This document shows, piece after piece, positions 358 through 9,896 of a stretch of 64,000 nucleotides of DNA. The DNA is from an uncultured Mollicutes bacterium (GTDB lineage: Bacteria > Bacillota_I > Bacilli_A > RF39 > UBA660): contig CANTCS010000001.1 of NCBI GenBank assembly GCA_947652375.1, positions 132,976 to 196,975 on the forward strand, written 5' to 3'. The notes beneath the pieces were generated by a model, which saw only the letters and a list, made by a program, of their open reading frames with translations, made no database searches and was not told the DNA's origin. Within the stretch, counting starts at the first letter, position 1. Each line of letters opens with the position of its first letter. Both the position numbers and the translations under genes were made by a program.

Positions 358-1383
358 CTAATAATTCATCTTAAAAGAAGTTACAGCATACCACATTCCA
401 TTTACTTCATATACGCTTACCGCCATTGCAACATTCTGTTCTCTAAGCATTGTTGCATTATGAGATGGACTATTCTTCCAAGCCGTAATAAAATCAGAGC
501 CTATTCCACCATAACCAATATTTTCACCAAATCCATATCCTGCACCATCATGAGAATAATTTATTGATATCTCCTTAGATCTTCTATCAGCTTCTGATTG
601 AGTTTCAGAAGTATTTGGTAGTACAGACAAGCCATTTTCTTTTCTATATATATTTATCTGATTGGCAAAGGAATTAGAAATATCTTGACGATATTTAGGA
701 GAAGTAGCAGTGTTGTTATTAGTTATATTGTTAGATGGTTTAGATGATGGGGTTGTTGTCGATTTTGAATTATTTTTAGCTGGTTTCTTTTCTGAAACTT
801 TTGATTGCTCTTCTGTTTTCTTTTTAATTTTTAATATAAAATTCTTTGAAGTTATATTATTGTTTTCATCTTCAGCTACAACTTTTAATTTGTATTCTCC
901 AACTATTTTAAGATTATATTCTCCTTCTATTAAAACTTTTACTTTGGTTAAGTCTTTTGCTTCAAAATAAGTAGTTAAATCTAACTTATCTTCTGTTTCT
1001 TCAATTTCTATAGTATCTTTAAATGAAGAAAATTCTGGTGCAATAGTATCTTTTACTTTTATTACAAAATCAATTTTTTTCTTTTTGTAACTAATAGTTA
1101 TTTTATACTCACCTACTGGAACTAACTCTAATTCATCCATAACAAATAAATCATTATCCTTCTTTAATGATTCTGAAGATAGTTTATAATCTTTTATATT
1201 CTTAGTAGCATCAGTATCTTTTAAATAATTAGATACATCAGAACTAATTTTTTCTCCTAATTCATAAACGAATTCTTCTTTTTTTAATTCTATTTTATAT
1301 GTATTTTTATACACAATAAATAATCCTACTAAAAATATAATTAGTATTATAATAGGTATTACTATCTTTAAGATACGCTTCAT
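358..1383 (-). CDS. Secreted/membrane-anchored CAP (SCP/PR-1, YkwD-like) domain protein with N-terminal TM and Ig-like/Thr-Ser-Asn-rich linker
   Basis: 341-aa ORF. N-terminal hydrophobic segment. C-terminal motif GYGFGENIGYGG...AWKNSPSHNATML...VYEVNGMWYAVTSF, typical of CAP/YkwD domains. RBS GGAGGAG upstream. Confidence 0.7.
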   Translation of the reverse strand: MKRILKIVIPIIILIIFLVGLFIVYKNTYKIELKKEEFVYELGEKISSDVSNYLKDTDATKNIKDYKLSSESLKKDNDLFVMDELELVPVGEYKITISYKKKKIDFVIKVKDTIAPEFSSFKDTIEIEETEDKLDLTTYFEAKDLTKVKVLIEGEYNLKIVGEYKLKVVAEDENNNITSKNFILKIKKKTEEQSKVSEKKPAKNNSKSTTTPSSKPSNNITNNNTATSPKYRQDISNSFANQINIYRKENGLSVLPNTSETQSEADRRSKEISINYSHDGAGYGFGENIGYGGIGSDFITAWKNSPSHNATMLREQNVAMAVSVYEVNGMWYAVTSFKMNY

Positions 1384-3339: not shown

Positions 3340-3560
3340 TTTGTTCCCCTCTCGAATCTTTTTAAACTATCCTTATTAAATCTAATTCAAATTGACTACC
3401 AACTTCAAAGAATTTTATTTCATCATCTCCATCAAATAAATAATAAACTTTGTTATTTATTACTTTAATGATAGTTAGAAAATACCCATGGTTATCAGAT
3501 AAGGTATTATATATTTTATACCTTTCCTTCTCTTTATAGTTTATTTAATCACCTCTTTTA

Positions 3561-3697
3561 GTTCATGATAGTAAACTTTTCTAATTAAAAAATAAAATAT
3601 ATTACTACATCTAAATGTGAAAAGTTTATAATACCTTTTCAAAGCACAATAACATCTACCACCTCCACTAAATCTAAAGTAGTTCACGATAGTAAAC
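3561..3697. repeat. Two direct copies of a 16-19 bp motif (TA)GTTCAYGATAGTAAAC(T) at 3561..3576 and 3682..3697
   Basis: Read directly. Related inverted copies occur at 4438..4453 and 4481..4496. Operator- or iteron-like. Confidence 0.6.
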
Positions 3698-3815
3698 TCT
3701 TTATACTAAAATAATAACCTTTTATTTAATAAAAGTCAATAACTTATTTTTATTTTTTATTTTTATAAACAAAACTGTATAGAATATCTATACAGTTCGT
3801 ACACACTTCAGTATT

Positions 3816-4118
3816 TTATGAATTTAATATTTTATCTAAAACATCTAAGGTTTTATCTAAGGATTCTTCATCTTCAACTGAAATTGTACTCACAGTACCA
3901 ATTATTTCTAATAGTCTTTCTAATTTTACTGCTGAAGAATTACAAAATAAAAGTTCTTTTTTCGTTTTATTGTAATCAGTTTCAATTTCCAAAATCTTTT
4001 TTACAACTTCTTCCATTACTTCATAAGGTATATCTTTCTTTTCTTCAAGATACTTTTCAATTTTTACTCCTAAAACTACTTCTACTTCTTTTACTGCATT
4101 TCTTTCTTCTTTAGTCAT
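3816..4118 (-). CDS. Hypothetical helical protein (island)
   Basis: The ORF runs to 4184 but the likely start is MTKEERNAV at 4118 (RBS AAGGAA about 10 nt upstream). It sits 3 nt after the stop of the upstream 64-aa ORF. Confidence 0.4.
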   Translation of the reverse strand: MTKEERNAVKEVEVVLGVKIEKYLEEKKDIPYEVMEEVVKKILEIETDYNKTKKELLFCNSSAVKLERLLEIIGTVSTISVEDEESLDKTLDVLDKILNS

Positions 4119-4120
4119 TT

Positions 4121-4315
4121 TTATTTTTCCTTTCCAATTGGTACTGCTTCTTGTGATGCCTTCTCCCTCAACTGCTTTAGACATACTTCCAAGATCTGAA
4201 TCACAGATTCATCATCCAATTGGCTTGTTGTACTTAGTTCTATATTTTTATTTGCAACTAAAATTTTGATACAACTCATCTGTTTTGAAGACTGCCCTTT
4301 ATTCAAAAATTTCAC
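4121..4315 (-). CDS. Hypothetical small protein (island)
   Basis: 64-aa ORF, first gene of a leftward operon divergent from the XRE-like gene. Confidence 0.3.
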   Translation of the reverse strand: MKFLNKGQSSKQMSCIKILVANKNIELSTTSQLDDESVIQILEVCLKQLREKASQEAVPIGKEK

Positions 4316-4437
4316 CTGCCTTTCTAATAGTCAGGATGAAAGTATCACCCATCTTACTATTTTCATTGCCTTACTCCTCCACTTCAAATATATAGTTTAA
4401 TACTATATAAAATATTTTATCATTTATTTCTTTTTGT

Positions 4438-4496
4438 GTCTACTATCGTGAACTTATTTTGGCTTTTATTGATTAATTAGGTTCACAATGGTAGAC
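4438..4496. promoter_or_regulatory. Inverted repeat GTCTACTATCGTGAAC (27 bp) GTTCACAATGGTAGAC in the divergent promoter region. Putative operator
   Basis: Read in sequence. The half-sites relate to the direct repeats at 3561/3682. Located between divergently transcribed genes (4315 minus, 4555 plus). Confidence 0.5.
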
Positions 4497-4554
4497 AATA
4501 TTATAAAAAAATAGTACAATGTTGATGATGTGATTATAACGAAAGGAGATAAAA

Positions 4555-4956
4555 ATGACTAAAGAAGAAGCCATCAGGTTTATAATTTCCGATTATTGTA
4601 AAATTCATAAAATTACGCCTACACAATTTGCAAGAGAAAGTGGGATTAGTAAAGCCTATATGAGTAAGATTATGAAAAAAAAGTATGGCAAAGTTGGTAT
4701 TTCCATGACTTATACTGAATTAATAGCTAAAGGAATGAAAATGAATATGATTGATTTTCAAAAATTAATTGAACAGTATAAGGAAAAAAATAATAGCACC
4801 AATTATAACCACGATACTGATATTCTTATAGCTCAAATTAATAATGAACTATATAATTTATCAAAAGAAGACTTAGAAGTAATACATAGTATTATAGTGA
4901 ATTCTGATTCTGGAAAATTAGATATTCTACATAATGTTTTGAAAAATATGAAATAA
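4555..4956 (+). CDS. XRE-family HTH transcriptional regulator (phage repressor/cro-like)
   Basis: ITPTQFARESGISKAYMSKIM helix-turn-helix. RBS GGAGA upstream of ATG 4555. Confidence 0.55.
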   Translation: MTKEEAIRFIISDYCKIHKITPTQFARESGISKAYMSKIMKKKYGKVGISMTYTELIAKGMKMNMIDFQKLIEQYKEKNNSTNYNHDTDILIAQINNELYNLSKEDLEVIHSIIVNSDSGKLDILHNVLKNMK

Positions 4957-4972
4957 CATATTTTTTTATTTT

Positions 4973-5836
4973 TTAATAATCTCTATCATAAAAGTCGTTT
5001 TCTTCTTCAAATTCAAGCTCCTTAAACCAACCAGTTTCTGGATCTATTTCCAATTTATCATTTATTCTTAATCTTTCAATGCAATTATTAATTGCTCCTT
5101 GAAAAAATCCAAACTTATTCTCTACTTTGTTACCATTTTCATCAATAAAATGTTTTGAAACTACTATTGGCACAATATAATGTGTCATTTTAACTAGATC
5201 CTTATATGAGTGTCCTTGCTGCAATAAATTTTCAAAATAATTGTCGTAATTGTATATATCAGTATCATATTCATCTATATAATTTTTTTCAATTAAATAA
5301 AGAGTTAAAGGATTTAATTCATCTAAATCGACGAATGGCAAATTTTCTTTAACTCTTTTAACTATTTGTTCTTTAATATTTTGTTTATTAGTATTTATTT
5401 GGGTATCCTTTTCGGCATCTCCTTCAACGGTATTCCCTTTTTGGGCATCTGGATTATCCTGTTGTTTTTCAACCTCTAATGGAATTTCACGAATAATATA
5501 TTCGTACTTATAATATCCTTTATCTCCTCTTGTTTGTTGTATTTCTAAATAGCCATGTTCTTTAAGTTCATTAAGTATAGTTCTTATGGCTTTAATATTT
5601 TCTTTACTAACTGCTACTAACCCTTTCATAGAGTAATCCCAATCTTCAGGCAAACTTAACATGAATGATAGTAGACCTTTTGCTTTATAAGAAAGATTTC
5701 TATCTTGCAAATGATAATTGCTCATAACTGTATAATTCTTTTGTTTTTTTATTTTAAATACTGCCATTACAATCACCCTTTCTTTTATTTTTAAACATTT
5801 AAAAAAGAACTGAATCTTGTCCAGTTCTATATTCAT
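4973..5836 (-). CDS. Replication initiator protein A N-terminal (RepA_N)-type winged-helix initiator
   Basis: FKIKKQKNYTVMSNYHLQDRNLSYKAKGLLSFMLSLPEDWDYSMKGL...ELKEHGYLEIQQTRGDKGYYKYEYII matches RepA_N of Firmicute plasmids, ICEs and phages. Confidence 0.6.
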   Translation of the reverse strand: MNIELDKIQFFFKCLKIKERVIVMAVFKIKKQKNYTVMSNYHLQDRNLSYKAKGLLSFMLSLPEDWDYSMKGLVAVSKENIKAIRTILNELKEHGYLEIQQTRGDKGYYKYEYIIREIPLEVEKQQDNPDAQKGNTVEGDAEKDTQINTNKQNIKEQIVKRVKENLPFVDLDELNPLTLYLIEKNYIDEYDTDIYNYDNYFENLLQQGHSYKDLVKMTHYIVPIVVSKHFIDENGNKVENKFGFFQGAINNCIERLRINDKLEIDPETGWFKELEFEEENDFYDRDY

Positions 5837-5852
5837 ATAATAACAGTTGTTA

Positions 5853-7166
5853 TCACGAAATTGATTCTGTAGGTTTCCTTGCTATAGCAATTTCTAAAGA
5901 GTCTGCATAATCTTCAAATTTACTAACTACTTCTTCTTCCATTTGAATTGTAACTCTTACATAAATGTTATAAGTTGTTTCAATCGTACTATGTCCTAAT
6001 CTTTTTGAAACAGCTTTTATATCTGCTCCTGCTTCAATTAGTCTAGTTGCATGTGTATCTCTAAAATCGTGAAATCTGCAAGGTATTCCTAACTCATAGT
6101 GAATTACTTTAAATGGATATTTACAAGTATTATTTCCCTCAAATGCTCCATTATTTTTTATAAATACTAAGTGTACTTCAGGTAAAGCAACATCAATTTC
6201 TGCAATACAATCAACTATTTTAGTTTCTGGTTTATTTGTATATGGATTTAAAACTTCTTTAGCATAATGTTTGATGTATGAATCTCCATATTGTTCTTTA
6301 TATATTTCTTGCTCTTCTTTAAATTCTTTTAAAGCAGCTGCTAATGTATCTCCAATATCAATTGTTCTGTAACTAGCTTTTGTTTTACACGGACCAAAAT
6401 ACCAAACAGTAGTCCTTTGCCCTTTTATAAGTCTGTGCTTTGTTCCACCCACTTGATTTTTTTCAACAATATTTTTATTTACTGTTAATTTCTTGTTTTC
6501 TAAATCAATGTCTTCCCATGTCAATCCAAATACTTCTGAAATTCTAAGCCCAGTATAATATGCCGTTAAAAAAGCATAATATATACAATGACTATTTTTA
6601 AATCTATTAAAAATCATTTCTATTTCTTCTGGTGTAAAAATATGAGCTGGATCTTCATCTGGACCATCATATCTTGGTAATCTTATTTTCAATGCTGGAT
6701 TATGCTTAATGAATCCGACACCATCTTCAGCATAAGCGAATGATGATTTTAAAACTTTCATTATACTTTTTAAAAAGTTTTTTGATACTCCTTTATTCAA
6801 AAATACATCTGTAAGAAAGTCATTTAATGTAGCTGTATCTATTTGCGATAACCTATAAAATCCTAGTTTTGGTTTAACATGATTTTTAATAATGCTTTTA
6901 TATGCCTCTATCGTATTATACCTTAGATTAATTTGACAATAGTTAGCCATCCAATAATCCAAAAAATCTGCATATGAACATGTATTAGGAGAAAATTTTT
7001 TACCTGTATTCATATATTCATTAAATGCTTTCATACCAGCAACATAAGCATCCTGCTTTGTCTTGAAACCTGACTTGTTAATAAACTTTCTAACTCCACC
7101 TTGTGGAGCTATTTCAAATCTATATTGATATAGATTTCCTCTTTTTGTTACATTCACTTTTCCCAT
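5853..7166 (-). CDS. int: Tyrosine-type site-specific recombinase / phage integrase
   Basis: C-terminal HDFRDTHATRLIEAGADIKAVSKRLGHSTIETTYNIYVRV (H-x-x-R...Y catalytic motifs). N-terminal arm-binding-like domain (GKVNVTKRGNLYQYRFE...). Confidence 0.85.
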   Translation of the reverse strand: MGKVNVTKRGNLYQYRFEIAPQGGVRKFINKSGFKTKQDAYVAGMKAFNEYMNTGKKFSPNTCSYADFLDYWMANYCQINLRYNTIEAYKSIIKNHVKPKLGFYRLSQIDTATLNDFLTDVFLNKGVSKNFLKSIMKVLKSSFAYAEDGVGFIKHNPALKIRLPRYDGPDEDPAHIFTPEEIEMIFNRFKNSHCIYYAFLTAYYTGLRISEVFGLTWEDIDLENKKLTVNKNIVEKNQVGGTKHRLIKGQRTTVWYFGPCKTKASYRTIDIGDTLAAALKEFKEEQEIYKEQYGDSYIKHYAKEVLNPYTNKPETKIVDCIAEIDVALPEVHLVFIKNNGAFEGNNTCKYPFKVIHYELGIPCRFHDFRDTHATRLIEAGADIKAVSKRLGHSTIETTYNIYVRVTIQMEEEVVSKFEDYADSLEIAIARKPTESIS

Positions 7167-7220: not shown

Positions 7221-7274
7221 TATTGTGAATTTGTGTTCATTGAAAAATCCCTTGTTTTATAAGGCTTAGAGCAA

Positions 7275-7326
7275 TTGTGTGCATTAATTTTTTATTTTAC
7301 GCACACAAATTGCACACAAGTGTGCA
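7275..7326. promoter_or_regulatory. Clustered inverted repeats TTGTGTGC-N16-GCACACAA and TGCACAC-AA-GTGTGCA upstream of int
   Basis: Read directly. GC-containing palindromes in an otherwise AT-rich spacer inside the element near attL. Candidate int promoter operator or recombination-directionality / arm-type sites. Confidence 0.4.
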
Positions 7327-7400
7327 TTTTTAACTGTTTTTTGCCTATTTTTTTGACTTTTTTTACTACTGCACTACTTCACAAACCCTTATAAATTAAG

Positions 7401-9896
7401 TTATTTACCACAACATTGTTTATACTTCTTGCCTGAGCCGCAGCTGCAAATTTGATTTCGACCTATTTTTTGACTTCTTTTTGGTTGTTTTTTAGTAGTT
7501 TTTTCTTCTTTATCATTTGTTATTATTTTTTTTGTTGTTTCTTTTCTTTCTATATTTTGTCTTATTTCTGCTTTAAGTAAGAATATTGAAACATCTTTGT
7601 CTATTTTTTGTAGCATAGAATCAAATAAATCAAATCCTTCCATAGTATAAGCTCTTAAAGGATCTTCTTGAGCATAACCACGTAGGTGAATTCCTTCTCT
7701 TAAATGAGACATAGTGTTAATATGTTCCATCCAGTAATTATCTAGTACTTGTAATGTTATAACTTTTTCGAATTCTTGAACTATTTCTTCAGGTAAATCT
7801 TTAATTTTCTCTTCATATTCTTCTATAACTTTTTTAGATAAAAAGTCAATTAACTCGTTTGCTTCTTTATCTTTAATATCTTTTTCCGATAAATCAATTT
7901 TTAATAAGTTTTCATTAACAAACTCTGTTATCTCTCTAATATCATCCTCTGTTAAATAGTTTTCTGGTGGAATATGAGAATTAACTAAATCTTCTATATG
8001 ATGTCTATAGGTAGTTAAAACCATTTCATGTATTGATGTGTTATCTAAAATCTTATTTCTTTTTTCATAGATAATTTCTCTTTGATTATTCATAACATCA
8101 TCATATTGTAGTAAGCTTTTACGAATATCAAAATTATTTCCTTCTACTCTTTTTTGCGCTGTTCCAATTGATTTAGTGAATGTTTTACTTTGAATTGCTT
8201 GTTCTCCTAAACCCATTGACTCCATCATTGCACCAATTCTATCTGATCCAAAACGAACCATTAAGTCATCTTTCATCGAAACAAAGAATTGAGTATATCC
8301 TGGATCTCCTTGACGTCCTGAACGTCCACGCAATTGATTATCAATACGACGTGACTCATGACGCTCAGTTCCAACCACACACAAACCACCTAGTTCTTTT
8401 ATTTCATCTGATAATTTAATGTCTGTACCACGACCTGCCATATTTGTAGCAATAGTTACTGATTTACTTTGACCTATTTTTGAAATAATTTCTGCTTCTC
8501 TTTCATGATTTTTTGCATTTAAAACTTCATGAGGAATATGTGCTTGTTTTAACAATCTGCTAATTAGTTCACTTGTTTCAATAGCAATTGTTCCAATTAA
8601 TACAGGTTGCCCTTCATTATATCTTTCTTTTACAAACTCTATTACTGCTTTATATTTTGCTTCTTTTGTAGCATAAACTAAATCAGGAGCATCGATTCTA
8701 ATAACATCTTTATTAGTTGGAATTTCTATAACATACATATTATAAATGTTTCTAAATTCTTCTTCTTCAGTCTTTGCAGTACCTGTCATACCTGATAATT
8801 TTTTATACATTCTAAATAAATTTTGAAATGTAATTGTTGCTAAAGTTTTTGTTTCTTGATTAATATTTACGCCTTCTTTGGCTTCGATAGCTTGATGTAG
8901 TCCATCAGAATATGCTCTACCTTTCATTAAGCGTCCAGTAAATTGATCAACTATTACTATTTCGCCATCTTGAACAACATAATCTACATCATTGTTCATT
9001 GCGTAATTAGCACGAAGAGCTTGGTTTATAAAATGAAGTAATGTTGCATTATCTACATCATAAAGATTTTTTATTTTAAACATTTCTTCGGCTTTATCTG
9101 CTCCTAATTCTGTTAAGTTAACACTCTTTGTTTTTTCATCAAATATAAAATCTTTTTCAATAGTTAAACTTTTAGCATATTTATCTGCACTAGTATAAAG
9201 ATTTACATTAGACATTTCTCCACCAGATATAATTAAAGGTGTTCTTGCTTCATCAATTAAAACTGAATCAACTTCATCTATGATTGCAAAGTTTAGAGGT
9301 CTTTGAACTCTTTCTTCTTTTTTAACTACCATATTATCTCTTAAATAATCAAATCCTATTTCATTATTTGTAGAATATAATATATCACAATTGTACGCAG
9401 TTTGTTTTTCTTCTGATGTCATATCTCTTGTATTTACTCCTACTGTTAAACCTAGGAAACGATGAATTCCACCCATCCATTCAGCATCACGACTAGCTAG
9501 ATATTCATTTACAGTTATAATATGAACTCCATCTCCACTTAAGGCATTTAAATATGCAGGAAGAACAGATGTTAAGGTTTTTCCTTCTCCTGTTTTCATT
9601 TCTGAGATATTTCCATAATGTATTGCAAGTCCACCTAAAATTTGGACAAAATAATGTTTTTCTCCTATAACACGAAATGATGCTTCTCTTGCTGTTGCAA
9701 AAGCTTCTACTAAGATATCTTCTAAAGTTTCTCCTTTACTTAATCTCTCTTTAAATTCGTTTGTTTTATTTTGTAGTTCTGTATCAGTTAATTTTGAATA
9801 TTCTTCTTCTAATTCAAGAATTTGATTTGCTAGAACATTAAATCTTCTTAATTCTTTATACTCATGATCGAATAATTTTTTTAATATATTCATCAT
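7401..9896 (-). CDS. secA: Preprotein translocase ATPase SecA
   Basis: 831 aa. DEAD-like motor motifs. C-terminal zinc-binding CSCGSGKKYKQCCGK. Confidence 0.97.
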   Translation of the reverse strand: MMNILKKLFDHEYKELRRFNVLANQILELEEEYSKLTDTELQNKTNEFKERLSKGETLEDILVEAFATAREASFRVIGEKHYFVQILGGLAIHYGNISEMKTGEGKTLTSVLPAYLNALSGDGVHIITVNEYLASRDAEWMGGIHRFLGLTVGVNTRDMTSEEKQTAYNCDILYSTNNEIGFDYLRDNMVVKKEERVQRPLNFAIIDEVDSVLIDEARTPLIISGGEMSNVNLYTSADKYAKSLTIEKDFIFDEKTKSVNLTELGADKAEEMFKIKNLYDVDNATLLHFINQALRANYAMNNDVDYVVQDGEIVIVDQFTGRLMKGRAYSDGLHQAIEAKEGVNINQETKTLATITFQNLFRMYKKLSGMTGTAKTEEEEFRNIYNMYVIEIPTNKDVIRIDAPDLVYATKEAKYKAVIEFVKERYNEGQPVLIGTIAIETSELISRLLKQAHIPHEVLNAKNHEREAEIISKIGQSKSVTIATNMAGRGTDIKLSDEIKELGGLCVVGTERHESRRIDNQLRGRSGRQGDPGYTQFFVSMKDDLMVRFGSDRIGAMMESMGLGEQAIQSKTFTKSIGTAQKRVEGNNFDIRKSLLQYDDVMNNQREIIYEKRNKILDNTSIHEMVLTTYRHHIEDLVNSHIPPENYLTEDDIREITEFVNENLLKIDLSEKDIKDKEANELIDFLSKKVIEEYEEKIKDLPEEIVQEFEKVITLQVLDNYWMEHINTMSHLREGIHLRGYAQEDPLRAYTMEGFDLFDSMLQKIDKDVSIFLLKAEIRQNIERKETTKKIITNDKEEKTTKKQPKRSQKIGRNQICSCGSGKKYKQCCGK
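7405..7413. repeat. Putative attL core TTACCACAA overlapping the secA stop codon
   Basis: Identical 9-mer at 1424..1432 with similar flanks. Confidence 0.55.

What the first reader, a model, noticed from the sequence alone, without database searches (positions are those of the whole stretch)
3340..4554. Four copies of a 16-bp motif GTTCAYGATAGTAAAC arranged as two direct and two inverted repeats in the element's long intergenic regions
Direct copies lie at 3561..3576 and 3682..3697, each extended to a 19-bp match. An inverted pair lies at 4438..4453 and 4481..4496, about 60-100 bp upstream of the XRE-like gene and divergent from the leftward operon. This geometry resembles a lysogeny-type genetic switch operator set, or replication iterons for the RepA_N protein. 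The unusually long 476-bp non-coding stretch 3340..3815 could also encode an sRNA.
Basis: seen in the sequence. Interest (0 to 1): 0.55.

Follow-up and report, generated by a model that had tools for sequence, protein, structure and literature searches.

The report
Mobile-element repressor operator set
The four 16-bp copies are real, conserved binding sites for the helix-turn-helix repressor of a small integrated element, placed on its promoters, and the same site types also sit in front of the DNA-transfer operons of conjugative elements in the same gut bacteria, which suggests that the two mobile elements are controlled together.

Summary
The 64-kb window has exactly four copies (3561, 3682, 4438, 4481), against 0.07 expected by chance for three at two mismatches or fewer. 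The motif is a quasi-palindrome, GTYCAC-N4-GTGRAC.

Twelve related elements keep four sites at the same places and in the same orientations. The sequence changes in concert within each element (types A to E) and tracks the recognition helix of the element's XRE-like protein. It does not track the Rep protein, whose DNA-binding domain barely varies. So this is an operator set, not iterons.

- The inverted pair supplies the -35 hexamers of two back-to-back promoters. Its spacing is 43-44 or 32-33 bp, which is 4 or 3 helical turns.
- Copy 3682 lies 13 nt after the -10 of a third conserved promoter.
- Copy 3561 sits just before the ribosome-binding site of a hidden, conserved 60-codon gene with an ATA start.

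The "476-bp non-coding stretch" is therefore a promoter, a leader and a gene, not an sRNA locus.

Unexpectedly, identical 16-mers of types A, B and C head the type IV secretion operons of conjugative elements in the same host clade. The subtype matches in the two co-resident pairs found. Cross-regulation between the two elements is plausible but untested.

The parts
4481..4496 (+). Operator O_R (GTTCACAATGGTAGAC). Its last 5 nt plus the next A form the -35 hexamer TAGACA of the rightward promoter P_R.
   Evidence: The position is conserved: 72-77 nt from the operator's first base to the ATG in all 12 elements.
4438..4453 (-). Operator O_L (GTTCACGATAGTAGAC on the - strand). Its promoter-proximal half forms the -35 TAGACA of the leftward promoter P_L.
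   Evidence: The O_L to O_R start-to-start spacing is 43-44 bp in 8 loci, 32-33 bp in 3 and 35 bp in 1.
3682..3697 (+). Operator m2 (O3). It begins 13 nt downstream of the -10 of the leftward promoter P3, at about +7 to +22 of the transcript.
   Evidence: The 12-13 nt offset from the -10 is seen in the 11 loci where it was checked.
3561..3576 (+). Operator m1 (O4). On the - strand it lies 5 nt upstream of the ribosome-binding site of the hidden p60 gene, and it is preceded by a TATTTT/T-run box 12 nt upstream.
4492..4520 (+). Promoter P_R for the XRE-like gene: -35 TAGACA (4492-4497), 17-nt spacer, -10 TACAAT (4515-4520).
   Evidence: 10 of 12 matches. The string AAAAAAATAGTACAATG is almost invariant in relatives. 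This is a prediction only.
4414..4442 (-). Promoter P_L: -35 TAGACA (4442-4437), 17-nt spacer, extended -10 TGATAAAAT (4422-4414).
   Evidence: The TGnTAnnAT box is conserved in all relatives. This is a prediction only.
3711..3739 (-). Promoter P3: -35 TTGACT (3739-3734), 17-nt spacer, -10 TATTAT (3716-3711). It drives the p60, p87, PemK, membrane protein, CSD, ArpU-like and CAP genes.
   Evidence: TTGAC(T/A)-17-TAT(T/C)AT is conserved in all loci examined.
3772..3798 (-). Intrinsic-terminator-like hairpin that ends the P_L operon.
   Evidence: The stem is conserved in the five-locus alignment, and the same hairpin is visible in L152 and L153.
3362..3544 (-). Hidden gene p60, 60 codons (INYKEKERYK...LIRIV), with an ATA start after the Shine-Dalgarno sequence GAGGTGA (3555-3549).
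   Evidence: Differences by codon position 1/2/3 are 587/450/1305. Homologues have GTG or ATG starts and were called as genes in L121, L152, L155, L156 and L158.
3626..3666 (-). Conserved Shine-Dalgarno-like GGAGGTG (3666-3660) followed by a non-conserved mini-ORF of 1-10 codons (ATG at 3655), in the P3 leader between m2 and m1.
   Evidence: The function is inferred, not shown: possibly ribosome loading or mRNA stabilisation.
4331..4366 (-). Eleven-codon leader ORF MKIVRWVILSS* behind P_L, with the Shine-Dalgarno sequence GGAGGAG.
   Evidence: The C-terminal WV(M/I)(F/L)SS* and the surrounding nucleotides are conserved in the relatives read by eye.
3816..4315 (-). P_L operon genes: p64 (4121-4315) and p100 (3816-4118, or from 4184). 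p100 is acidic and diverges in step with the XRE-like protein.
   Evidence: No family matches.
4555..4956 (+). XRE-like repressor candidate, 133 aa: a five-helix HTH domain (recognition helix at residues 33-40) plus a three-helix C-terminal domain.
4973..5836 (-). Replication-initiator-like protein (HTH_36). It is not the partner of this motif.
5853..7166 (-). Tyrosine integrase at the right end of the element, next to secA (7401-9896).

Best explanation
The four copies are operators for the element's own XRE-family helix-turn-helix repressor, the 133-aa product of 4555-4956. The element is about 7 kb, integrated beside secA, and runs from the integrase to the CAP-domain gene.

Each site is a 6-4-6 quasi-palindrome, which suits a dimer. 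O_L and O_R each contain the -35 hexamer of one of two back-to-back promoters. A bound repressor would therefore shut off the leftward operon (leader peptide, p64, p100) and limit its own synthesis. The two sites lie on the same face of the helix, 4 turns apart or 3 turns in some relatives, which fits cooperative binding of two dimers.

About 750 bp away, m2 sits at +7 to +22 of a strong third promoter, P3. A second site, m1, sits about 120 bp further on, just before the ribosome-binding site of a hidden 60-codon gene. Together they would block expression of the long leftward operon: p60, p87, a PemK-type toxin, a membrane protein, a cold-shock-domain protein, an ArpU/sigma-like regulator and a CAP-domain protein.

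Shown here: the sites, their conservation, their concerted sequence change, their positions relative to consensus promoter elements, and the HTH fold. Inferred: actual binding, repression, cooperativity, and the signal that relieves repression.
For: - Rarity: there are only four copies in 64 kb.
- Positional conservation: 12 related elements (XRE-like protein 30-98% identical) keep four sites at the same positions and orientations while the flanks diverge.
- Concerted change: the sites fall into types. Type A is GTYCAC-TATC-GTGRAC. Type B is GTTTACTAGTGTAAAC. Type C is GTCTACTATTGTAGAC. Type D is GTTTACTATTGTAAAC. Type E is GTTTACGAGTGTGTAC.
- Match to the recognition helix (residues 32-39): A is SK[AS]Y[MI]SKI, including L121, which is only 47% identical overall. 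B is SKSSISKI or NKATLSKL. C is SRAYINKI. D is SKAFLSKI. E is SKSFINKI.
- Divergence pattern: the XRE-like protein and p100 are the most diverged genes between elements, for example 39-40% in L153 against 57-82% for the rest.
- Promoter overlap: consensus promoter elements overlap or abut the sites and are conserved.
- Phasing: O_L to O_R spacing is quantised at 43-44 or 32-33 bp.
- Fold: the AlphaFold model has pLDDT 91, with a five-helix HTH and a helical C-domain. The nearest solved folds are the C.Esp1396I and C.BclI controller proteins, ClgR, the N-domain of SaPI Stl, HigA and SinR.
- Independent hint: a Ruminococcus prophage region has four sites with the same CACGATAGTG core beside small HTH_26-like repressor genes.
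Against: - There are no binding or expression data.
- The Pfam HTH_26 match is below the gathering score (19.3 against 22 bits). The HTH assignment therefore rests mainly on the predicted fold.
- Covariation with the XRE-like protein is not exclusive, because p100 co-diverges with it.
- Identical sites occur in conjugative elements that carry no detectable homologue of the XRE-like protein in the parts sampled. Another protein could therefore be the binder, or a second binder.
- No clear sigma-70 promoter was found for m1 or for the conjugative-element sites. How those sites act is unclear.
- One relative (L157) has a 35-bp O_L to O_R spacing, which is out of phase. The m1 to m2 spacing (87-140 bp) shows no helical phasing.
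Confidence: 0.72

Rival explanations
1. The sites are bound mainly by a regulator encoded by the co-resident conjugative element or by the host. The small element merely carries copies of that regulator's sites so that it is switched together with the conjugative element. On this view the XRE-like protein has another role.
For: Identical 16-mers head three operons of the conjugative element: primase/T4CP, VirB2-VirB4, and HTH_3-SSB-relaxase. One site lies directly upstream of an HTH_3 regulator gene of that element, which is the classic autoregulation layout. The m1 site of the small element has the same T-run, N9, site, Shine-Dalgarno layout.
Against: The site type follows the recognition helix of the small element's own XRE-like protein. 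The recognition helix of the conjugative-element HTH_3 protein is invariant among all homologues seen, although every one whose sites were seen belongs to type A, so this argument is weak. The O_L/O_R layout on the XRE-like gene's own promoter is typical self-regulation.
Confidence: 0.13
2. The copies are iterons of a replication origin, bound by the neighbouring replication-initiator-like protein (4973-5836).
For: A Rep-like gene is adjacent. Two of the copies are direct repeats in an AT-rich region.
Against: The N-terminal winged-helix domain of Rep is almost identical in elements with site types A, B, C and D. Rep identity to the window is 77% for a type C element but 46% for a type A element. 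There are only two direct copies, 87-140 bp apart with variable spacing, not a tandem array. The other two copies coincide with -35 hexamers.
Confidence: 0.03
3. The motif is part of a promoter read by an alternative sigma or ArpU-like activator, such as the element's 153-aa protein at 1446-1907, rather than a repressor site.
For: The element encodes an ArpU/sigma-70 region 4-like protein. The m1-type and conjugative-element sites lack a recognisable sigma-70 promoter. They share a conserved upstream box, GTAGTT...TATTTTTTTT.
Against: The orientation of the motif relative to transcription is opposite at P_L/P_R and at m1/m2. This fits a symmetric dimer site, not a sigma element. P_L, P_R and P3 have good sigma-70 hexamers of their own. 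ArpU-like identity does not follow site type. The conserved upstream box, rather than the 16-mer, could be the activator target.
Confidence: 0.05
4. The m1, m2 and conjugative-element copies act as RNA hairpins (6-bp stem, 4-nt loop) in the 5' leaders and control translation or mRNA stability.
For: These copies are transcribed or lie just upstream of Shine-Dalgarno sequences. Types B and C form perfect 6-bp stems.
Against: O_L and O_R lie upstream of their transcription start sites, so they are not in RNA, yet they change in concert with m1 and m2. The 4-nt centre is conserved within each type, which a hairpin loop would not require. There is no Rfam match.
Confidence: 0.04

Closest known systems
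Temperate-phage CI/Cro-type switches with a remote operator (lambda O_R/O_L; lactococcal TP901-1 CI with O_R, O_L, O_D; r1t Rro). This comparison is from my own knowledge.
   Same: An HTH repressor gene is transcribed divergently from the genes it represses. Dyad-symmetric operators overlap the divergent promoters. Additional operators lie hundreds of bp away. Specificity ('immunity') types diversify between relatives.
   Different: There are only two sites at the switch, each built into a -35 hexamer, 3 or 4 helical turns apart. The remote sites guard a separate promoter and operon. No Cro-like HTH was recognised in the opposing operon. There is no S24 peptidase domain for RecA-type induction.
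SaPI/PICI master repressor Stl and its stl-str divergent region (PMC6695447, listed).
   Same: Both are small integrated elements with int, a master HTH repressor and a rep gene. The N-domain of the model matches the Stl N-domain (6h49, 6h4c, 8p8o). The repressor lacks a self-cleavage domain, so relief by a partner protein is plausible.
   Different: No packaging or capsid-redirection genes were found, and there is no link to a helper phage. The sites shared in trans are with a conjugative element, not a phage. Sequence similarity to Stl is not detectable.
Restriction-modification controller (C) proteins such as C.Esp1396I and C.BclI.
   Same: These are the best structural matches for the HTH domain: TM 0.8 on the target, rmsd 1.7-2 A over about 76 residues. 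From my own knowledge, C-proteins bind as two dimers to two adjacent pseudo-palindromic operators.
   Different: C-proteins have about 75-80 residues and no C-terminal domain. Their operators are adjacent within about 35 bp upstream of their own gene. The genetic context is different: there is no restriction-modification system here.
Helper-to-hitchhiker regulatory sharing: the SetCD/AcaCD activators of SXT/R391 ICEs and IncA/C plasmids also act on mobilizable genomic islands (PMC4542580). P2 Ogr/P4 delta is a further example, from my own knowledge.
   Same: One regulator's binding sites are present both on a self-transmissible element and on an unrelated small integrative element in the same cell.
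   Different: Those cases use activator sites of a single specificity. Here the sites look like repressor operators. They come in at least three matched specificity types (A, B, C) in both element families. The only type-specific regulator identified so far is encoded by the small element, not by the conjugative one.

Membership tests
XRE (Cro/C1-type) HTH repressor with operator set | Five-helix Cro/C1-type HTH DNA-binding domain | tested here: met
   The AlphaFold model has pLDDT 91 with helices at 3-17, 22-29, 33-40, 51-60 and 65-80. Foldseek matches C.Esp1396I, ClgR, C.BclI, Stl, HigA and SinR with probability 1.00 and TM up to 0.81 on the target.
XRE (Cro/C1-type) HTH repressor with operator set | Sequence match to a curated HTH family above its threshold | tested here: not met
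   The best Pfam match is HTH_26 at 19.3 bits against a cut-off of 22. HTH_3 has E = 0.17. There is no NCBIfam match and no PDB sequence match.
XRE (Cro/C1-type) HTH repressor with operator set | Dyad-symmetric sites of about 14-18 bp that overlap or abut promoter elements | tested here: met
   The 6-4-6 quasi-palindrome has 4-6 of 6 symmetric positions. The sites overlap the -35 of P_L and P_R and lie at about +7 of P3. The promoters are predicted, not mapped.
XRE (Cro/C1-type) HTH repressor with operator set | Site sequence co-varies with the DNA-reading residues of the protein | tested here: met
   Five site types correspond to five recognition-helix signatures across 12 elements. This is correlative, and p100 co-diverges too.
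XRE (Cro/C1-type) HTH repressor with operator set | Direct, specific binding and repression | not testable with these tools
   This needs EMSA or footprinting and reporter assays.
Replication-origin iterons | Clustered, regularly spaced direct repeats at an origin | tested here: not met
   There are two direct copies 87-140 bp apart with variable spacing, and the other two copies are inverted at promoters.
Replication-origin iterons | Repeat sequence co-varies with the initiator's DNA-binding domain | tested here: not met
   Rep residues of about 25-110 are nearly identical across site types A to D. Rep identity is uncoupled from site type.
Phage-inducible chromosomal island (PICI/SaPI-like satellite) | int, divergent master repressor and rep/ori, plus phage-packaging or interference genes | tested here: inconclusive
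   int, the repressor and Rep are present. No terminase small subunit or capsid-related genes were found. An ArpU-like regulator is present. The motif was not found in viral contigs in this arrangement.
Integrative mobilizable element (IME) hitch-hiking on an ICE | Own integrase plus a relaxase or oriT recognised by the helper's transfer machinery | tested here: inconclusive
   An integrase is present in most copies. No relaxase domain was found in any element protein. oriT was not searched for. Some copies lie next to serS with no integrase on that side.
Integrative mobilizable element (IME) hitch-hiking on an ICE | Co-residence and regulatory linkage with a conjugative element | tested here: met
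   Same contig (JAZQBG01: L121 and L125) or same samples and scaffold (L001-L003 with L239/L240), with matching site subtype. Site types A, B and C are shared by the two element families. Linkage is inferred from shared sites only.

The most novel reading that the evidence does not exclude
A family of roughly 7-kb integrative elements in uncultured gut Bacilli encodes a type-specific repressor. Its operators are also placed at the head of each transfer operon of co-resident conjugative elements: primase/coupling protein, VirB2-VirB4, and HTH_3-relaxase.

The two unrelated element families share at least three interchangeable specificity types. This amounts to an 'immunity-type' code that couples a small element to a conjugative helper. 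Either the small element silences the helper's transfer genes, or both elements are released together.

Closely related conjugative elements (coupling protein 95% identical) carry different site types. This implies that the operator cassettes are swapped as modules.
Probability: 0.4. Interest if true: 0.75.

Novelty: new variant of a known kind. Interest (0 to 1): 0.55.

Why it matters
Taken alone, a repressor with operators on a small integrated element is ordinary.

It is more useful than usual for three reasons.

1. It gives a clean natural specificity series. There are five operator types paired with five recognition-helix variants, and this can be tested directly by swapping residues.
2. 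It shows that a "non-coding" gap hides a conserved gene with a non-standard ATA or ATC start.
3. It points to regulatory coupling between a small integrative element and conjugative elements in uncultured human-gut Bacilli, with matched specificity types.

If the third point is real, it would extend the known helper-hitchhiker logic (SXT/MGI, P2/P4, phage/SaPI) to repressor-based, type-matched control of conjugation in Gram-positive gut bacteria.

Tried and rejected
- **sRNA in 3340-3815.** There is no Rfam match at E <= 1. Conservation there is explained by a coding frame with third-position variation. No conserved + strand promoter was found.
- **Rep iterons.** Rejected by the lack of covariation with Rep.
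- **Integrase arm sites or att repeats.** The motif lies 1.3-3.6 kb from the integrase end. No direct repeat links the int-secA spacer to the left side. That spacer has its own, different repeats.
- **Generic genome-wide repeat.** A scan of one genome per species gave mostly single hits, as chance predicts. My estimate is several hundred chance hits in 596 Gb. Multi-copy loci occur only in the related Bacilli MAGs.
- **Viral contigs.** There are 21 hits and none has this arrangement. Three of them (L132, L133, L139) are coding tandem repeats.
- **Delta-proteobacterial pairs of GTTCAC-N4-GTGAAC.** These belong to an unrelated metabolic locus.
- **First structure prediction.** With 6 sequences it was unusable, at pLDDT 52. 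It was repeated with 26 sequences.
- **The conjugative element's HTH_3 protein as the type-specific binder.** Its recognition helix is invariant, but all examples whose sites I could see are type A, so the test is undecided.
- **Homologues of small-element proteins in conjugative-element loci.** A search of 1.14 Mb found none. Two earlier runs of the same script printed nothing because of a scripting fault, and the result rests.
- **Other searches.** PADLOC gave no informative hit. A literature search for the motif core found only unrelated primer sequences.
Full report
**1. The observation.**

- 3561-3576 (+) GTTCATGATAGTAAAC
- 3682-3697 (+) GTTCACGATAGTAAAC
- 4438-4453 (-) GTTCACGATAGTAGAC
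- 4481-4496 (+) GTTCACAATGGTAGAC

The last copy differs from the stated consensus at three positions. Three hits at two mismatches or fewer compare with 0.07 expected, and no shuffle reaches three. No other copy of the relaxed pattern exists in the 64-kb window.

The 16-mer is a 6-4-6 quasi-palindrome, GTYCAC-N4-GTGRAC. This is read directly from the sequences.

**2. Context.**

The copies lie in a small element at the left end of the window. Its genes are as follows:
- tyrosine integrase (5853-7166, -), next to secA
- a replication-initiator-like protein (4973-5836, -), which matches Pfam HTH_36 and PHROG replication-initiation families, not RepA_N
- a 133-aa XRE-like protein (4555-4956, +)
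- two small leftward ORFs, p64 and p100
- the long gap
- an 87-aa ORF and a PemK/MazF-type toxin
- a membrane protein
- a cold-shock-domain protein
- an ArpU/sigma region 4-like protein
- a CAP-domain protein

G+C content is about 25%. Nearly identical or related loci are in MAGs labelled 'uncultured Bacilli bacterium' from human gut.

**3. Comparative evidence.**

Homologues of the XRE-like protein form a small family. There are 7 clusters by word-based search and 37 representatives by exhaustive HMMER.

Nine members were looked up. Eight sit in an element with the same gene order. The ninth, L157, is a partial contig that keeps p100 and the switch region but has no Rep gene in view. The genome scan adds two more such elements, L055 and L121.

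Every one of the twelve distinct elements that could be read has four sites at the same places and in the same orientations. Within close relatives the 16-mer is nearly invariant while the flanks drift.

In distant relatives the sequence differs, but all four sites change together:

| Type | Site | Loci |
|---|---|---|
| A | GTYCAC-TATC-GTGRAC | window, L055, L121, L001, L004, L005, L009; variant in L158 |
| B | GTTTACTAGTGTAAAC | L152, L155 |
| C | GTCTACTATTGTAGAC | L153, L154 |
| D | GTTTACTATTGTAAAC | L156 |
| E | GTTTACGAGTGTGTAC | L157 |

**4. Who reads the sites.**

The recognition helix of the XRE-like protein (residues 32-39) sorts the same way:

| Type | Recognition helix |
|---|---|
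| A | SK[AS]Y[MI]SKI in all proteins, including L121, which is only 47% identical overall |
| B | SKSSISKI or NKATLSKL |
| C | SRAYINKI |
| D | SKAFLSKI |
| E | SKSFINKI |

Between elements, the XRE-like protein and p100 are by far the most diverged genes. For L153 against the window they are 39% and 40% identical, against 57-82% for the other seven proteins. This is the pattern of an immunity module.

The Rep protein does the opposite. Its N-terminal winged-helix region is almost identical in types A to D. Its overall identity is 77% to a type C element but 46% to a type A element. This rejects the iteron reading.

p100 is acidic and all-helical, with no DNA-binding signature. I read it as a possible partner or anti-repressor, by inference only.

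With a 26-sequence alignment the XRE-like protein folds confidently (pLDDT 91) into a five-helix HTH domain plus a three-helix C-terminal domain. The nearest solved structures are XRE-type regulators: C.Esp1396I, C.BclI, ClgR, the SaPI Stl N-domain, HigA, DdrO and SinR. The sequence-only assignment is weak, because HTH_26 falls below its threshold.

**5. Placement on promoters.**

The consensus scan finds two promoters at the inverted pair:
- On the + strand, TAGACA (4492-4497), 17 nt, TACAAT (4515-4520).
- On the - strand, TAGACA (4442-4437), 17 nt, TAAAAT (4419-4414), preceded by TG.

In both cases the -35 hexamer is the last five bases of the operator plus one. These elements are conserved in all relatives as T(G/A)GACA, TGnTAnnAT and TAGTA(C/A/T)AAT.

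O_L to O_R spacing is 43-44 bp in eight loci, 32-33 bp in three and 35 bp in one. That is four or three helical turns, as expected if two dimers must sit on one face.

In the long gap a third promoter is conserved in every locus examined: TTGAC(T/A), 17 nt, TAT(T/C)AT. In the window it lies at 3739-3734 and 3716-3711. Copy m2 begins 12-13 nt after the -10, so it covers the start of the transcript. Upstream of this promoter a conserved hairpin (3772-3798) ends the P_L operon.

**6. The 'non-coding' stretch.**

From 3340 to about 3545 the alignment varies at every third base. The - strand frame 3544 to 3365 encodes a conserved 60-residue protein. Pairwise differences by codon position are 587, 450 and 1305.

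Its start is ATA in the window, L004, L005 and L009, and ATC in L001. It is GTG or ATG in L121, L152, L155 and L156. A strong Shine-Dalgarno sequence sits at the right distance. Gene callers found it only where the start is canonical or a canonical start lies just upstream.

Copy m1 lies 5 nt upstream of that Shine-Dalgarno sequence. Between m2 and m1 there is a conserved GGAGGTG followed by a non-conserved mini-ORF of 1-10 codons. This may load ribosomes or stabilise the mRNA, by inference only.

There is no Rfam family. I found no conserved + strand promoter, so I see no support for an sRNA gene.

**7. An unexpected extension.**

The genome scan also hit single copies in the same MAGs, outside the element. 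These lie in conjugative elements, in three places:
- between the coupling-protein gene (T4CP, 647 aa) and a VirB2-like gene
- upstream of a primase operon
- upstream of an HTH_3 regulator gene that leads an SSB, ArdC and relaxase operon

This is shown.

The local layout is the same as at m1: a TATTTT/T-run box, about 9-10 nt, the 16-mer, about 10-25 nt, a Shine-Dalgarno sequence, then the start codon.

Fetching 80 relatives of the coupling protein showed the same junction carrying different site types:
- type A: L101, L125, L173, L239, L242-251
- type B, GTTTACTAGTGTAAAC: L159-167, 187-189, 214
- type C, GTCTACTATTGTAGAC: L168-172

These are identical, 16 of 16, to the m1 and m2 sites of type B and type C small elements. 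The type B conjugative elements have a coupling protein 95% identical to that of the type A element L125. Only the intergenic cassette differs.

The two elements co-reside in two host lineages, and the subtype matches:
- JAZQBG01 contig 3 has GTTTACTATCGTGAAC in both the small element (L121) and the conjugative element (L125).
- The samples and scaffold carrying L001-L003 (GTCCACTATCGTGAAC) also carry a conjugative element with GTCCACTATCGCGAAC and CTCCACTATCGTGGAG.

No homologue of any small-element protein was found in 1.14 Mb of conjugative-element loci. The recognition helix of the HTH_3 protein is invariant, but I could only see type A examples. No sigma-70 consensus promoter was found at these sites. 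They may be weak promoters, activator-dependent promoters, or roadblock sites within operons.

**8. Interpretation.**

*Best supported (about 0.7).* The four copies are operators of the element's own XRE-family repressor. They control three promoters, with autoregulation and probably cooperative binding at the divergent pair.

*Plausible but unproven (about 0.4).* The same protein also occupies the conjugative-element sites, or a conjugative-element protein with the same specificity occupies both sets. Either way the two elements would be switched together.

Known parallels are the SetCD/AcaCD activators acting on mobilizable genomic islands (PMC4542580) and P2/P4, the latter from my own knowledge. 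The difference here is a repressor-type site that comes in several matched specificity types.

**9. Limits.**

Everything about binding, repression, promoters and transcript ends is predicted. Covariation rests on 12 elements and five types. Co-residence rests on two independent host lineages. The organism of the window itself is not named; its identity is inferred from near-identical loci.

Noticed in passing
window 3362-3544 (-): An unannotated, conserved 60-codon gene (p60) whose start codon is ATA here. It is ATA or ATC in several relatives and GTG or ATG in others. It lies directly upstream of the 87-aa ORF and the PemK-type toxin, so the toxin module may have three genes.
   Followed up: yes
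window 4331-4366 (-): An eleven-codon leader ORF, MKIVRWVILSS*, with a strong Shine-Dalgarno sequence, lies between P_L and p64. Its C-terminal residues WV(M/I)(F/L)SS and the surrounding nucleotides are almost invariant in relatives. This suggests a regulatory leader peptide or an RNA element.
   Followed up: partly
window 4104-4124 and 4549-4569: A perfect 21-nt inverted repeat: ATAAAAATGACTAAAGAAGAA. The XRE-like gene and p100, on opposite strands, therefore have identical translation-initiation regions and both begin MTKEE. In L121 the two starts are similar but not identical.
   Followed up: partly
window 7245-7352 (int-secA spacer); L001 11135-11375; L004 10550-10800: Each element has its own short repeated and inverted words beside the integrase gene. 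The window has GTGTGCA/TGCACAC, L001 has TGTTCCCAT/ATGGGAACA and L004 has TGTCCACA/TGTGGACA. These may be integrase arm-type sites or the int promoter operator. A shared ACAAACCCTTATAAA lies near the secA end.
   Followed up: no
window 3626-3666 (-): A conserved 9-nt perfect anti-16S match (GGAGGTGRT) lies about 30 nt into the P3 leader. It is followed by a mini-ORF that is not conserved in length or sequence (1-10 codons; ATG-TAA in L004). It resembles mRNA-stabilising Shine-Dalgarno elements.
   Followed up: partly
L101 4824, L113 4577, L125 1722, L161 714 and 7990, L168 7964, L239, L242 2023 and 9964: Conjugative elements of the same host clade carry the same 16-mers (types A, B, C) at the head of three transfer operons. 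Each is preceded by a conserved GTAGTT...TATTTTTTTT box. Elements with 95% identical coupling proteins differ in site type.
   Followed up: partly
L134 10600-10740, also L049 and L148: A Ruminococcus callidus prophage region has four sites with the core CACGATAGTG (for example GTTCACGATAGTGAAC and GTACACGATACTGTAC). They lie next to a row of small HTH_26-like repressor genes.
   Followed up: partly
L015, L029, L059, L083, L089: Delta-proteobacterial MAGs carry pairs of perfect palindromes, GTTCAC-[AG]ATA-GTGAAC. In four of the five loci the two sites are about 105-109 bp apart; in L029 they are 239 bp apart. In L083 the pair lies between an aldehyde:ferredoxin-oxidoreductase-like gene and a radical-SAM-like gene. 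This is probably an unrelated regulon with a similar site.
   Followed up: partly
L132, L133, L139 (viral contigs): The string ATTGGAGTTCACGATAGTGGACC recurs every 915 bp or so. It appears to be a coding tandem repeat in a large protein, unrelated to the operator.
   Followed up: no
L007, L008, L009 (next to serS); L154 234-1328: Some copies of the element lie beside serS with no integrase on the Rep side. One has a different integrase beyond the CAP gene. Integration modules and sites therefore vary within the family.
   Followed up: no
window 358-1383 (-): The N-terminal half of the CAP-domain protein gives a weak match to the SEC10/PgrA surface-exclusion domain (E = 3e-4, below the cut-off). 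This would fit a conjugation-related role for the element.
   Followed up: no
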